Source: Escherichia coli
GTDB lineage: Bacteria; Pseudomonadota; Gammaproteobacteria; Enterobacterales; Enterobacteriaceae
Reading direction: 5' to 3' (one strand)
Assembly (NCBI RefSeq): GCF_003334785.1
Contig: NZ_QOWV01000001.1
DNA length: 64,000 bases
Under the pieces are notes generated by a model, which saw only the letters and a program-made list of their open reading frames with translations, had not been told where the DNA came from and did no database searches. The translations under genes and the position numbers were made by a program. This document shows positions 47,421 through 53,189 of the stretch, one piece after another. The first letter of the stretch is position 1. Every line of letters starts with the position of its first letter.

Positions 47421-50400
47421 ATGCAAAGGAAAACTCTATTGTCGGCCTGTATTGCATTAGCTCTGAGTGGTCAGGGTTGGGCGGCAGATATCACAGAGGT
47501 AGAAACCACCACAGGTGAAAAGAAAAATACCAATGTGACTTGTCCGGCAGACCCAGGAAAACTCAGTCCGGAAGAGCTTAAACGCTTACCCTCTGAATGC
47601 TCTCCTTTAGTCGAACAAAACCTGATGCCATGGCTTTCCACAGGCGCTGCTGCGTTAATCACGGCCTTAGCCGTAGTGGAACTAAACGACGATGATGATC
47701 ATCATCATCGCAACAATTCTCCACTCCCACCGACACCCCCTGATGATGAATCAGACGACACTCCAGTTCCCCCAACTCCTGGCGGAGATGAGATAATACC
47801 GGACGATCCGGATGATACGCCTACACCTCCCAAACCGGTTTCGTTTAATAATGACGTTATTCTCGATAAAACAGAAAAAACGTTAACTATTCGCGATTCA
47901 GTTTTTACTTATACCGAGAATGCTGACGGGACTATATCTCTGCAAGATAGCAATGGTCGTAAGGCAACGATTAATCTTTGGCAGATTGATGAAGCGAATA
48001 ACACTGTTGCCCTTGAAGGGGTGAGCGCAGATGGCGCAACGAAGTGGCAATATAATCACAACGGTGAGCTTGTTATTACGGGTGATAATGCCACAGTAAA
48101 CAACAATGGCAAAACCACCGTTGACGGTAAAGATTCCACCGGTACGGAAATCAACGGTAATAACGGGAAAGTGATTCAGGACGGCGATCTGGATGTCAGC
48201 GGCGGCGGTCACGGTATTGATATCACCGGTGACAGCGCGACGGTGGATAACAAGGGCACCATGACCGTCACCGATCCGGAGTCCATGGGTATCCAGATCG
48301 ACGGTGACAAGGCCATCGTCAATAACGAAGGCGAGAGCACCATCACCAACGGTGGCACCGGCACCCAGATTAATGGTGATGACGCCACGGCAAACAACAA
48401 CGGCAAAACCACCGTTGACGGCAAGGATTCCACCGGTACGGAAATCAACGGTAATAACGGAAAAGTTATTCAGGACGGCGATCTGGATGTCAGCGGCGGC
48501 GGTCACGGTATTGATATCACCGGCGACAGCGCAACGGTGGATAACAAGGGCACCATGACCGTCACCGATCCGGAGTCCATCGGTATCCAGATTGACGGCG
48601 ACCAGGCCATCGTCAATAACGAAGGCGAGAGCACTATCACCAATGGCGGCACCGGCACTCAGATCAACGGTAACGACGCCACCGCGAATAACAGTGGAAA
48701 AACCACTGTTGATGGAAAAGATTCCACGGGTACCAAAATCGCGGGCAATATCGGCATTGTAAATCTGGATGGTAGCCTGACTGTTACAGGCGGTGCGCAT
48801 GGTGTTGAGAACATTGGTGACAACGGCACGGTTAACAACAAAGGAGATATTGTTGTTTCCGATACTGGATCGATTGGCGTGCTCATCAACGGTGAGGGGG
48901 CAACAGTATCCAATACGGGTGATGTTAACGTTAGCAATGAAGCGACAGGGTTCAGCATCACAACCAACAGTGGGAAGGTTTCGCTGGCAGGCAGTATGCA
49001 GGTTGGCGATTTCTCGACCGGGGTAGATCTTAATGGCAACAATAACAGCGTGACGCTGGCGGCAAAAGATCTAAAAGTGGTCGGGCAGAAAGCGACGGGC
49101 ATAAACGTTTCTGGCGATGCGAATACAGTGAATATCACTGGTAACGTTCTGGTTGATAAGGATAAAACCGCAGACAATGCGGCGGAATATTTCTTCGATC
49201 CATCCGTGGGTATCAACGTTTACGGCAGTGATAATAACGTGACGCTGGATGGAAAGTTAACTGTTGTATCAGACAGTGAGGTTACTTCTCGTCAGAGTAA
49301 TTTATTTGATGGCAGCGCAGAGAAAACGTCAGGTCTGGTTGTGATTGGCGATGGCAATACCGTTAATATGAATGGTGGACTTGAACTGATTGGAGAGAAA
49401 AACGCGCTTGCAGATGGGTCGCAGGTTACTTCCTTGCGCACAGGATATAGTTATACCAGCGTTATTGTCGTTAGTGGTGAGTCGTCGGTATATCTGAATG
49501 GAGATACGACAATCAGCGGAGAATTCCCTCTGGGGTTTGCCGGGGTTATTCGGGTACAGGATAAAGCTTTGCTGGAAATTGGCAGTGGCGCTACGCTAAC
49601 AATGCAGGATATTGACAGTTTTGAACATCATGGGACAAGAACCCCAGAACTTACTTATGCTGATTCCGGTGCGAAAATTGTTAATAAAGGTACTGTTGAA
49701 ATTCAGAATTTAGGTTTTGCTTTTGTTACTGGTGAAAATACAACAGGTATAAATAGTGGCACGATCTCGTTATTACAAAATGGTAAAGATCCGGCACCGT
49801 CTCCCATTGTTTTACTGGCTACTAACGGAGGGAGCGCCACTAATGCAGGTACGATCACAGGTAAAGTGACGGAACAACATAGCGTATTTAACAAGTATTC
49901 AACGGGCACATCGAATTCATTTATTTTTAATAACGATGTCAGTAGCATAACAGGGTTAGTCGCTCAATCGAATAGCACAATTATCAATACTGACAGCGGC
50001 ATCATTGATTTGTATGGTCGTGGTAGTGTCGGCATGCTTGCTATAGCAGATTCAACAGCAGAAAATCAGGGTAAAATTACACTGGATTCTATGTGGGTAG
50101 ATGCAAATGACACTACCGCAATGCGAGATATAGCTAGCAACAGCGCCATTGACTTCGGTACAGGTGTGGGAGTTGGTACTGATAGTTATAGTGGTGCAGG
50201 GAAAAATGCAACAGCAATTAACCAATTGGGCGGTGTTATAACTATTTATAACGCCGGCGCAGGTATGGCGGCCTATGGCGCCAGCAATACAGTTATTAAC
50301 CAGGGGACGATTAACCTCGAAAAAAATGGTAATTATGACGATAGTCTGGCAGCAAATACTCTGGTAGGGATGGCTGTTTATGAGCATGGTACTGCTATCA

Positions 50401-53189: not shown

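What the first reader, a model, noticed from the sequence alone, without database searches (positions are those of the whole stretch)
47421..53189. Uninterrupted 5.8-kb ydbA autotransporter gene
As I recall, ydbA in K-12 is a pseudogene broken by IS2 and IS30 insertions. Here a single 1922-codon frame runs from signal peptide to C-terminal beta-barrel with no insertion sequence, so this strain may make a functional giant type Va adhesin. Function of the intact protein is essentially uncharacterised.
Basis: partly seen in the sequence, partly recalled or inferred. Interest (0 to 1): 0.45.

Follow-up and report, generated by a model that had tools for sequence, protein, structure and literature searches.

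The report
Intact ydbA autotransporter gene
This is an unbroken copy of the E. coli ydbA surface-protein gene, which two insertion sequences split in the lab strain K-12; unbroken copies are common in natural E. coli and already annotated and published, so the finding is real but ordinary, although nobody has yet tested what the protein does.

Summary
Window 47421-53189 (+) is one 1922-codon ORF. It has a Shine-Dalgarno site, its own AT-rich upstream region and a rho-independent terminator.

Outside the repeat array, it matches K-12 ydbA base for base. The only differences are that IS2, IS30 and one 294-bp (98-aa) repeat unit are absent.

Pfam finds BigA_N, BigA_beta and the Autotransporter beta-domain. 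An AlphaFold model of the last 490 residues (pLDDT 84.6) shows a linker helix and a 12-strand barrel. It matches EstA, AaaA, EspP, NalP, BrkA and Hbp translocators. Residues 220-340 model as a beta-helix.

Intact divergent alleles give dN/dS of 0.08-0.25.

It is not new:
- The identical protein sits on 441 contigs and is annotated in RefSeq.
- 852 of 5426 complete E. coli genomes have the K-12 IS target site uninterrupted.
- Goldstone et al. 2016 reported full-length ydbA in about 42% of phylogroup A.

I found no functional study. Expression and adhesion remain inferred. Several lineages have inactivated the gene independently.

One feature is unexplained: a family-conserved N-terminal module (Cys loop, Gly/Ala hydrophobic segment, His/Asp patch, Pro-rich repeats).

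Verdict: already known, low interest.

The parts
47121..47153 (+). paaY terminator hairpin. It marks ydbA as a separate transcription unit.
   Evidence: 13-pair stem followed by a T-run; perfect 11-nt inverted repeat.
47154..47420 (+). AT-rich upstream control region. It holds a promoter-like site at 47228-47255 and the Shine-Dalgarno AAGGA at 47410-47414, 6 nt before the ATG. A 21-codon annotated ORF lies on the minus strand at about 47194-47259.
   Evidence: GC 0.29 for 47000-47299; promoter scan (not above shuffle expectation); sequence; RefSeq small CDS WP_010723099.1. The same intergenic region is listed as a 'promoter island' in K-12 (PMC3661553).
47421..53189 (+). ydbA coding sequence, 1922 aa plus stop, uninterrupted.
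   Evidence: 100% identical to WP_001573416.1 in NZ_CP080223.1.
47421..47483 (+). Sec-type signal peptide, aa 1-21 (MQRK / hydrophobic core / GWA|AD).
   Evidence: Read from the sequence; pattern conserved in 20 homologues. No dedicated predictor was available.
47541..47600 (+). Conserved Cys41...Cys60 loop (CPxxxxxLxxxxxxxLPxxC).
   Evidence: C41, P42, L56 and C60 are invariant in alignments A2 and A3. The model shows a short helical hairpin at pLDDT about 68.
47625..47684 (+). Gly/Ala-rich hydrophobic segment, aa 69-88. Function unexplained.
   Evidence: The most hydrophobic 19-aa window of the whole protein (KD 1.78). A comparable segment (KD 1.5-2.1) is present in all 20 homologues. AF2 confidence is below 50.
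47685..47837 (+). Asp/His patch (NDDDDHHH) and Pro-rich acidic linker, aa 89-139.
   Evidence: The linker is repeat-expanded in homologues. It lies at the position where PMC5183578 places the STTR3 VNTR of Salmonella bigA.
47838..48080 (+). BigA_N beta-barrel domain, aa 140-220.
   Evidence: Pfam PF25784, E 7e-33, full model length. AF2 pLDDT 80-90. No solved structural relative.
48081..48740 (+). 2.2 tandem copies of a 294-bp (98-aa) repeat at the start of the beta-helix. K-12 has 3.2 copies.
   Evidence: TRF; BLAST register offset of 294 nt against K-12; protein repeats and 98/49/about 24.5-aa periodicity.
48081..51890 (+). Passenger, aa 221 to about 1490. Predicted parallel beta-helix; its centre is hypervariable between alleles.
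   Evidence: AF2 for aa 220-340: three short strands per rung of about 24.5 aa, pLDDT above 90. The rest is inferred from composition (G/N/T/S/V-rich) and periodicity. dN 0.4-0.9 in the centre against 0.01-0.13 at the ends. No PDB sequence relative.
49640..49694 (+). Intact target sites of the K-12 insertions: IS2 (AACCC, 49640-49644) and IS30 (CT, 49693-49694).
   Evidence: Junction sequences. VE-F10 has IS30 at the same position in the opposite orientation.
51891..52142 (+). BigA_beta beta-sandwich domain, aa 1491-1574.
   Evidence: Pfam PF25783, E 2.4e-25. AF2 strands, pLDDT 84-94.
52143..52352 (+). Helical junction, then the linker helix (aa about 1626-1644, nt 52296-52352) that precedes the barrel.
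   Evidence: AF2 helices H143-212 of the model, pLDDT about 90.
52374..53180 (+). 12-strand type Va translocator beta-barrel, aa about 1652-1920. The protein ends ...NFKKTF.
   Evidence: Pfam PF03797. AF2 pLDDT mostly above 90. Foldseek probability 1.00 to EstA 3kvn, AaaA 9oqa, EspP, NalP 1uyn/1uyo (TMt 0.68-0.69), BrkA and Hbp.
53209..53244 (+). Rho-independent terminator of ydbA.
   Evidence: 10-bp GC-rich stem followed by U7; -19.5 kcal/mol, z = -3.4; sequence.

Best explanation
Shown: this is the intact allele of the chromosomal E. coli gene ydbA, at its usual locus between paaY and pdxI. It equals the K-12 gene as it was before IS2 and IS30 landed in it, minus one 98-aa repeat unit. The protein is a classical monomeric (type Va) autotransporter of the BigA/YdbA subfamily. 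Its domain order is: signal peptide, a conserved N-terminal module, BigA_N domain, a long beta-helical passenger of about 1270 aa, BigA_beta sandwich, linker helix, 12-strand barrel. Inferred from general type Va knowledge, not tested here: Sec exports the protein and the signal peptide is cleaved. The two closely spaced Cys pairs (41/60 and 1025/1030) can form disulfides small enough to pass through. BAM inserts the barrel. The passenger threads out from its C-terminal end to its N-terminal end and folds into a rigid rod roughly 25 nm long. That places the BigA_N domain and the N-terminal module at the distal tip. I recognised no SPATE-type cleavage motif around the linker, so the passenger probably stays attached to the cell. 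The likeliest role is surface adhesion or aggregation. Gain or loss of whole 98-aa units (four rungs, about 2 nm) would tune rod length. Expression is probably low in laboratory conditions because the promoter region is AT-rich.
For: ORF and translation signals. Terminator. Identity to K-12 apart from the ISs and one repeat unit; the reconstructed K-12 ancestor is open at 2020 aa. Synteny paaY-ydbA-pdxI in four lineages. Pfam BigA_N, BigA_beta and Autotransporter. Co-linear NCBIfam auto_BigA match. C-terminal AF2 model (pLDDT 84.6, pTM 0.77) and its fold matches to solved autotransporter barrels. Beta-helix rungs at pLDDT above 90. Purifying selection between intact alleles that share 65-78% protein identity (dN/dS 0.08-0.25). 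Identical protein on 441 contigs, 90% cluster of 10,492 members. 852 complete genomes uninterrupted at the IS target. Celik et al. 2012 class BigA as an AIDA-I-like passenger on a NalP-type barrel (PMC3419190), which fits the NalP fold match.
Against: No evidence of transcription, surface display or binding was obtainable. The promoter-like site is no better than shuffled sequence gives. The gene is lost repeatedly: IS2+IS30 in K-12, IS30 alone in VE-F10, a frameshift in UM146 and a nonsense codon in O157:H7. Only about 42% of phylogroup A strains keep it full length (PMC4951805). So it is dispensable in many niches. The central 1100 aa of the passenger were not modelled. A conserved TM-like segment after the signal peptide is not explained by the standard pathway.
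Confidence: 0.8

Rival explanations
1. The gene is intact but cryptic. It is transcriptionally silenced and contributes nothing in this strain. It simply has not yet been hit by the inactivating events that other lineages have suffered.
For: Independent inactivation in at least four lineages. A 29% GC upstream region, listed as a 'promoter island' in a table on H-NS binding in K-12 (PMC3661553). The K-12 ydbA transcript rises 7.7-fold only in an rpoZ mutant (PMC5811629). Full-length copies occur in only about 42% of phylogroup A.
Against: dN/dS of 0.08-0.25 across alleles whose synonymous sites are near saturation shows long-term selection on the protein. The N- and C-terminal modules are strongly conserved (dN 0.01-0.04). 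852 genomes retain an uninterrupted site. This rival is compatible with the main explanation, because a gene can be conditionally expressed.
Confidence: 0.3
2. The passenger is not primarily an adhesin. It delivers a membrane-active tip: the conserved Gly/Ala hydrophobic segment plus the His/Asp patch would insert into a target membrane, or drive oligomerisation. This would resemble the hydrophobic N-terminus of the VacA autotransporter toxin (that comparison is from my own knowledge).
For: The hydrophobic segment is the most hydrophobic stretch of the protein and is conserved in all 20 homologues examined, down to about 30% identity. It is flanked on its C-terminal side by acidic residues, which should favour export over stop-transfer (inference). 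In a type Va passenger the N-terminus is the distal tip.
Against: No similarity to any toxin. AF2 gives the segment pLDDT below 50. The module was found only inside the BigA/YdbA family, so it has no independent functional context. The rest of the architecture is that of AIDA-like adhesins.
Confidence: 0.08
3. The 1922-aa length is an assembly artefact: repeat collapse from 3.2 to 2.2 copies of the 294-bp unit.
For: Tandem 294-bp repeats at 90% identity are a classic place for short-read assemblies to collapse.
Against: The identical 1922-aa protein is recorded on 441 contigs, including complete chromosomes. Alleles of 1673-2605 aa occur in finished genomes. Either copy number leaves the frame open.
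Confidence: 0.02

Closest known systems
E. coli K-12 ydbA pseudogene (ydbA_1 / ydbA_2, interrupted by IS2 and IS30)
   Same: Same locus (paaY-ydbA-pdxI). Zero nucleotide differences outside the repeat array.
   Different: No IS2, no IS30, and one fewer 294-bp repeat unit (2.2 against 3.2 copies). It therefore encodes a complete 1922-aa protein; the reconstructed K-12 ancestor is 2020 aa.
Salmonella enterica BigA ('surface-exposed virulence protein', NCBIfam NF033178 auto_BigA)
   Same: Same overall architecture and similar length (profile of 1875 positions, co-linear match). Both have BigA_N and BigA_beta. They share the N-terminal Cys-loop/hydrophobic module (E about 5e-30 for Salmonella fragments) and a Pro-rich variable repeat after it. 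The C-terminal 522 aa score 776 bits.
   Different: The whole-protein score of 1076 bits is far below the curated cutoff of 3400, so it is a family relative and not BigA itself. The passenger core is divergent. Salmonella BigA is itself functionally uncharacterised in the papers I found. It should not be confused with the unrelated Brucella BigA adhesin, which is sometimes cited for it.
AIDA-I / Ag43-type beta-helical adhesin autotransporters of E. coli
   Same: Monomeric type Va protein with a long repetitive beta-helical passenger. Celik et al. 2012 call the BigA passenger AIDA-I-like.
   Different: No Pfam AIDA, pertactin or ESPR hit. No significant fold or sequence match of the modelled or unmodelled passenger to Ag43 or other solved passengers. 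No GATC cluster upstream of the kind that controls agn43. It also has the extra BigA_N and BigA_beta domains and the N-terminal module.
NalP / EspP / EstA translocator domains (solved type Va barrels)
   Same: 12-strand barrel preceded by a pore helix. Foldseek probability 1.00; TM-score normalised to target is 0.68-0.69 for NalP.
   Different: Only 12-17% sequence identity and no phmmer hit to any PDB chain. I recognised no SPATE-type intra-barrel cleavage motif (inspection only).

Membership tests
Classical (type Va) monomeric autotransporter | C-terminal 12-stranded outer-membrane beta-barrel translocator | tested here: met
   Pfam PF03797, E 7e-19. The AF2 model has about 12 long strands at pLDDT above 90. 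Top Foldseek hits are EstA, AaaA, EspP, NalP, BrkA and Hbp.
Classical (type Va) monomeric autotransporter | Alpha-helical linker immediately before the barrel | tested here: met
   AF2 helix at model residues 194-212 (protein about 1626-1644), directly before the first barrel strand. This is prediction only.
Classical (type Va) monomeric autotransporter | N-terminal Sec signal peptide | tested here: met
   MQRK + hydrophobic core + GWA|AD, read from the sequence and conserved across homologues. No SignalP-type tool was available, so the cleavage site is inferred.
Classical (type Va) monomeric autotransporter | Beta-helical passenger domain | tested here: inconclusive
   Met for aa 220-340 (three strands per rung of about 24.5 aa, pLDDT above 90). 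It is supported by periodicity and composition for the rest. About 1100 aa were not modelled, and no solved passenger matches.
Classical (type Va) monomeric autotransporter | C-terminal aromatic residue (beta-signal for BAM) | tested here: met
   The protein ends ...LNFKKTF. The terminal F is invariant in alignment A1.
Classical (type Va) monomeric autotransporter | Passenger actually displayed on the cell surface | not testable with these tools
   Needs protease shaving or immunolabelling.
BigA/YdbA subfamily | BigA_N (PF25784) and BigA_beta (PF25783) domains | tested here: met
   E 7e-33 over the full model length, and E 2.4e-25.
BigA/YdbA subfamily | ydbA chromosomal locus (paaY or ydbL upstream, pdxI downstream) | tested here: met
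BigA proper (NCBIfam NF033178 auto_BigA) | Whole-protein score at or above the curated cutoff of 3400 bits | tested here: not met
   1075.9 bits. It is a relative of BigA and is not filed as BigA.
Adhesin (functional class) | Demonstrated binding to host, matrix, abiotic surface or self | not testable with these tools
   No experimental paper on YdbA was found. 'Adhesin' rests on architecture alone.

The most novel reading that the evidence does not exclude
The BigA/YdbA family carries a conserved N-terminal device with no described counterpart. It lies between the signal peptide and the passenger. In order, it has an invariant Cys-x19-Cys loop, a Gly/Ala-rich TM-like segment more hydrophobic than the signal peptide, an Asp/His patch, and a length-variable Pro-rich acidic repeat. 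It could be a new functional element of type Va secretion. One possibility is a transient inner-membrane tether that times release. Another is a membrane-inserting or oligomerising tip displayed about 25 nm from the cell. The intact allele in this window would be a convenient K-12-like background in which to test it.
Probability: 0.15. Interest if true: 0.5.

Novelty: already known. Interest (0 to 1): 0.13.

Why it matters
It matters little as a discovery. The intact gene is annotated in RefSeq, present in hundreds of finished genomes, and its full-length prevalence has been published. It has modest practical value. This allele is the exact pre-insertion form of the K-12 gene, apart from one repeat unit. 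It is therefore a clean template for restoring or expressing ydbA in K-12 and finally testing what this large, widespread and repeatedly lost surface protein does. The conserved N-terminal module is the only part that might teach something new about autotransporter biology.

Tried and rejected
1. I first assumed the window was strain P13-6 because ydbA matched at 100%, and I borrowed that strain's annotation. One search showed the window has intact paaE and paaF where P13-6 has an 874-nt deletion. VE-F10, identical over window 1-25000, has an IS30-split ydbA and a paa deletion. The source strain is therefore neither of these, and my early note about a paaE/paaF pseudogene does not apply to the window.
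2. The apparent 2.2% divergence from K-12 in the 5' 2.2 kb turned out to be entirely a repeat-register artefact.
3. phmmer of the C-terminal 422 aa and of the 1270-aa passenger against PDB sequences gave no hits.
4. Foldseek of the N-terminal model against PDB gave nothing below E 0.2, so BigA_N has no informative structural relative.
5. A profile search with the N-terminal 98 aa found only BigA/YdbA N-termini. Many were contig-end fragments from Salmonella, Citrobacter and E. coli. The module has no outside context.
6. I looked for a phase-variation switch upstream. There is no GATC between 46578 and 47696, and no inverted repeats apart from the paaY terminator and one weak 13-nt pair.
7. The sigma-54 ChIP site reported inside paaY is present at 46944-46960, but the paaY terminator separates it from ydbA. 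The site reported inside K-12 ydbA_1 is absent here within 2 mismatches.
8. The promoter scan found no more sites than in shuffled sequence.
9. The Cys10 'LSAC' could have been a lipobox. I rejected this because the Cys is not conserved and the preceding h-region is too short.
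Full report
OBSERVATION. It spans 47421..53189 on the + strand, 1922 sense codons and a stop, with no internal stop. The ATG is the first start codon after the upstream in-frame stop. AAGGA lies six bases before it. It is the start RefSeq uses for the identical protein WP_001573416.1. A frame this long cannot stay open by chance. Upstream, the paaY gene ends in its own hairpin terminator (47121-47153), followed by about 270 bp of 29% GC DNA. Downstream, a 10-bp GC stem with a U7 tail at 53209-53244 folds at -19.5 kcal/mol, z = -3.4. The gene is therefore a self-contained transcription unit.

COMPARISON WITH K-12. In MG1655 the same locus (paaY, ydbA, pdxI, ydbD) holds two annotated pseudogene fragments separated by an IS2 and an IS30 transposase gene. 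BLAST and direct junction reading give the following:
- IS2 sits after gene nt 2224, with a 5-bp duplication AACCC (window 49640-49644).
- IS30 sits after nt 2274, with a 2-bp duplication CT (window 49693-49694).
- Fifty bases of ydbA are stranded between the two elements.
- K-12 has 3.2 copies of a 294-bp tandem repeat where the window has 2.2.
All 64 apparent mismatches come from aligning non-equivalent repeat units. Outside the array there are no differences. Removing the ISs and their duplications from K-12 gives an open 2020-aa frame, and proteins of exactly that length exist intact in other strains. So the window carries the pre-insertion K-12 allele minus one 98-aa unit.

WHAT THE PROTEIN IS. 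Pfam finds three domains:
- BigA_N (PF25784), aa 140-220, E 7e-33.
- BigA_beta (PF25783), aa about 1491-1574, E 2.4e-25.
- Autotransporter beta-domain (PF03797), aa about 1696-1892, E 7e-19.
NCBIfam's auto_BigA model matches co-linearly but at 1076 bits against a cutoff of 3400. The C-terminal 522 aa contribute 776 bits and the N-terminal 260 aa only 47. The protein is a relative of Salmonella BigA, not BigA itself.

I built alignments from homologues found by an exhaustive search of 1.84 billion cluster representatives. That search found 218 hits at E <= 1e-3 and 83 at <= 1e-30. The named examples I looked up come from E. albertii, Citrobacter, Enterobacter and E. coli, with distant C-terminal-only relatives in Microvirgula.

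AlphaFold on the last 490 aa gave mean pLDDT 84.6 and pTM 0.77. The model shows a beta-sandwich, a small helical junction, a 19-residue helix and about 12 long antiparallel strands. Foldseek against the PDB returns EstA, AaaA, EspP, NalP (TM 0.68-0.69 normalised to the target), BrkA and Hbp, all at probability 1.00. This agrees with Celik et al. 2012, who placed the BigA barrel with NalP and called its passenger AIDA-I-like (PMC3419190).

AlphaFold on aa 1-340 gave mean pLDDT 73.8. BigA_N comes out as a confident beta domain. From residue 220 there is a regular helix of three short strands per rung of about 24.5 residues, at pLDDT above 90. That matches the 98/49/24.5-residue periodicity in the sequence, so one 98-aa repeat unit equals four rungs. 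The remaining 1100 aa or so of passenger were not modelled. They are inferred to continue the helix from their G/N/T/S/V-rich composition. No solved structure resembles the passenger or BigA_N by sequence or fold. The protein ends in ...NFKKTF, and the terminal Phe is invariant in the family. The mature protein's four cysteines form two closely spaced pairs, 41/60 and 1025/1030. From my own knowledge, closely spaced pairs are the pattern tolerated by autotransporter secretion.

IS IT LIKELY TO BE FUNCTIONAL? For function: intact alleles from other lineages share only 65-78% protein identity with it or with each other (E26, 1673 aa; FEA3, 2605 aa). They give dN/dS of 0.08-0.25 with synonymous sites near saturation. 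The two ends are strongly conserved (dN 0.01-0.13) and the passenger core is hypervariable (dN 0.4-0.9). This is the pattern expected of a surface-exposed protein on a conserved secretion scaffold.

Against constant need: the gene has been knocked out independently several times.
- IS2+IS30 in K-12.
- IS30 alone in VE-F10.
- A frameshift in UM146.
- One in-frame stop in O157:H7 TW14359.

Expression evidence is indirect and comes from K-12. The paaY/ydbA intergenic region is listed as a 'promoter island' in a table on H-NS binding (PMC3661553). The ydbA transcript rose 7.7-fold in an rpoZ mutant (PMC5811629). My promoter scan found no more sites than in shuffled sequence. There are no GATC sites or invertible-element repeats upstream. 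I could test neither expression nor binding, so 'functional adhesin' remains an inference from architecture.

HOW COMMON, AND IS IT KNOWN?
- The exact 1922-aa sequence is recorded on 441 contigs, and its 90%-identity cluster has 10,492 member sequences.
- Megablast finds at least 80% of the gene in 987 of 5426 complete E. coli genomes.
- A 260-bp probe spanning both K-12 insertion sites matches 1236 genomes at 99% identity or more. In 852 of them the site is uninterrupted. Most of the rest are K-12-type split copies.
- Allele lengths run from about 1670 to 2600 aa.
- RefSeq annotates these genes as 'BigA/YdbA N-terminal beta-barrel domain-containing protein' or 'autotransporter domain-containing protein'.
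- Goldstone et al. 2016 state that ydbA is an autotransporter pseudogene in MG1655 and that full-length versions occur in about 42% of phylogroup A (PMC4951805).
I found no paper testing the function of YdbA. Salmonella bigA appears only as a pseudogene in host-adapted lineages, as a candidate adhesin, as the site of the STTR3 VNTR, and as a deletion target in evolved mutants. The intact gene itself is not a finding.

THE ONE UNEXPLAINED FEATURE. A module lies between the signal peptide and BigA_N. It is conserved in all 20 homologues examined, down to about 30% identity. In order, it contains:
- an invariant CPx...LPxxC loop (C41 to C60);
- a Gly/Ala-rich hydrophobic segment (aa 69-88), which is the most hydrophobic 19-residue window in the whole protein (KD 1.78, higher than the signal peptide);
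- an Asp/His-rich patch;
- an acidic Pro-rich repeat whose length varies widely between homologues.
A TM-like stretch after a cleaved signal peptide would, as a stop-transfer, strand the passenger in the cytoplasm. Its moderate hydrophobicity and acidic downstream flank suggest it is exported instead and ends up at the distal tip. That is inference. AlphaFold gives it pLDDT below 50. A profile search found the module only in this family. I record it as unexplained and as the basis of the most novel reading.

VERDICT. Interest is low.

Noticed in passing
window 49693-49694; L008 (NZ_AP027946.1, VE-F10) and L002 (K-12): Strain VE-F10 has ydbA interrupted by IS30 alone, at exactly the same dinucleotide as in K-12 but in the opposite orientation relative to ydbA. 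This implies two independent insertions at one target, meaning an IS30 hot spot inside ydbA. It also shows that the IS2 and IS30 hits in K-12 were separate events.
   Followed up: partly
L006 (NC_017632.1 UM146) 652-7360; also hits H21, H22, H32, H33, H37 and proteins P0024, P0076, P0098, P0124: Several ydbA homologues are named 'EntS/YbdA MFS transporter' in RefSeq/GenBank. This looks like a ydbA/ybdA gene-name mix-up propagated by annotation. These are autotransporters, not MFS transporters.
   Followed up: partly
L007 (O157:H7 TW14359) 2148-7862; L006 (UM146): ydbA has been inactivated independently in other lineages. In O157:H7 a single in-frame stop splits it; RefSeq annotates the pieces as 1011 aa and 819 aa. 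In the B2 strain UM146 there is a frameshift. In these strains the paa cluster is absent and ydbA directly follows ydbL.
   Followed up: partly
window 47541-47837: A conserved N-terminal module of the BigA/YdbA family: an invariant Cys-x19-Cys loop, a Gly/Ala hydrophobic segment more hydrophobic than the signal peptide, an Asp/His patch and a variable Pro-rich repeat. No explanation; not covered by the Pfam domains found.
   Followed up: partly
window 38459-40293 compared with NZ_CP080223.1 (P13-6) and NZ_AP027946.1 (VE-F10): The window has intact paaE and paaF. P13-6, which shares the identical ydbA, has an 874-nt paaE/paaF deletion. VE-F10, identical over window 1-25000, has a paaZ-to-paaI deletion and a frameshifted feaR. 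The paa/ydbA region is a patchwork of independent lesions among very close relatives, consistent with the 'region of heterogeneity' in PMC4951805.
   Followed up: partly
window about 16100-17650: By identity with VE-F10 over window 1-25000, ttcA and uspF are adjacent here. In K-12 the Rac prophage lies in this interval (the K-12 layout is from my own knowledge). The source strain appears to lack Rac.
   Followed up: no
window 46944-46960 (+), inside paaY: Exact copy of the sigma-54 ChIP-seq site TTGGCATGGAAAAAGCA reported in K-12 paaY, with ydbA as the downstream gene (PMC4591121). It lies upstream of the paaY terminator. The second reported site, inside K-12 ydbA_1, is not present in this allele within 2 mismatches.
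   Followed up: partly
window about 47194-47259 (-): A 21-codon ORF annotated in RefSeq (WP_010723099.1, hypothetical protein) lies on the opposite strand inside the AT-rich ydbA upstream region.
   Followed up: no
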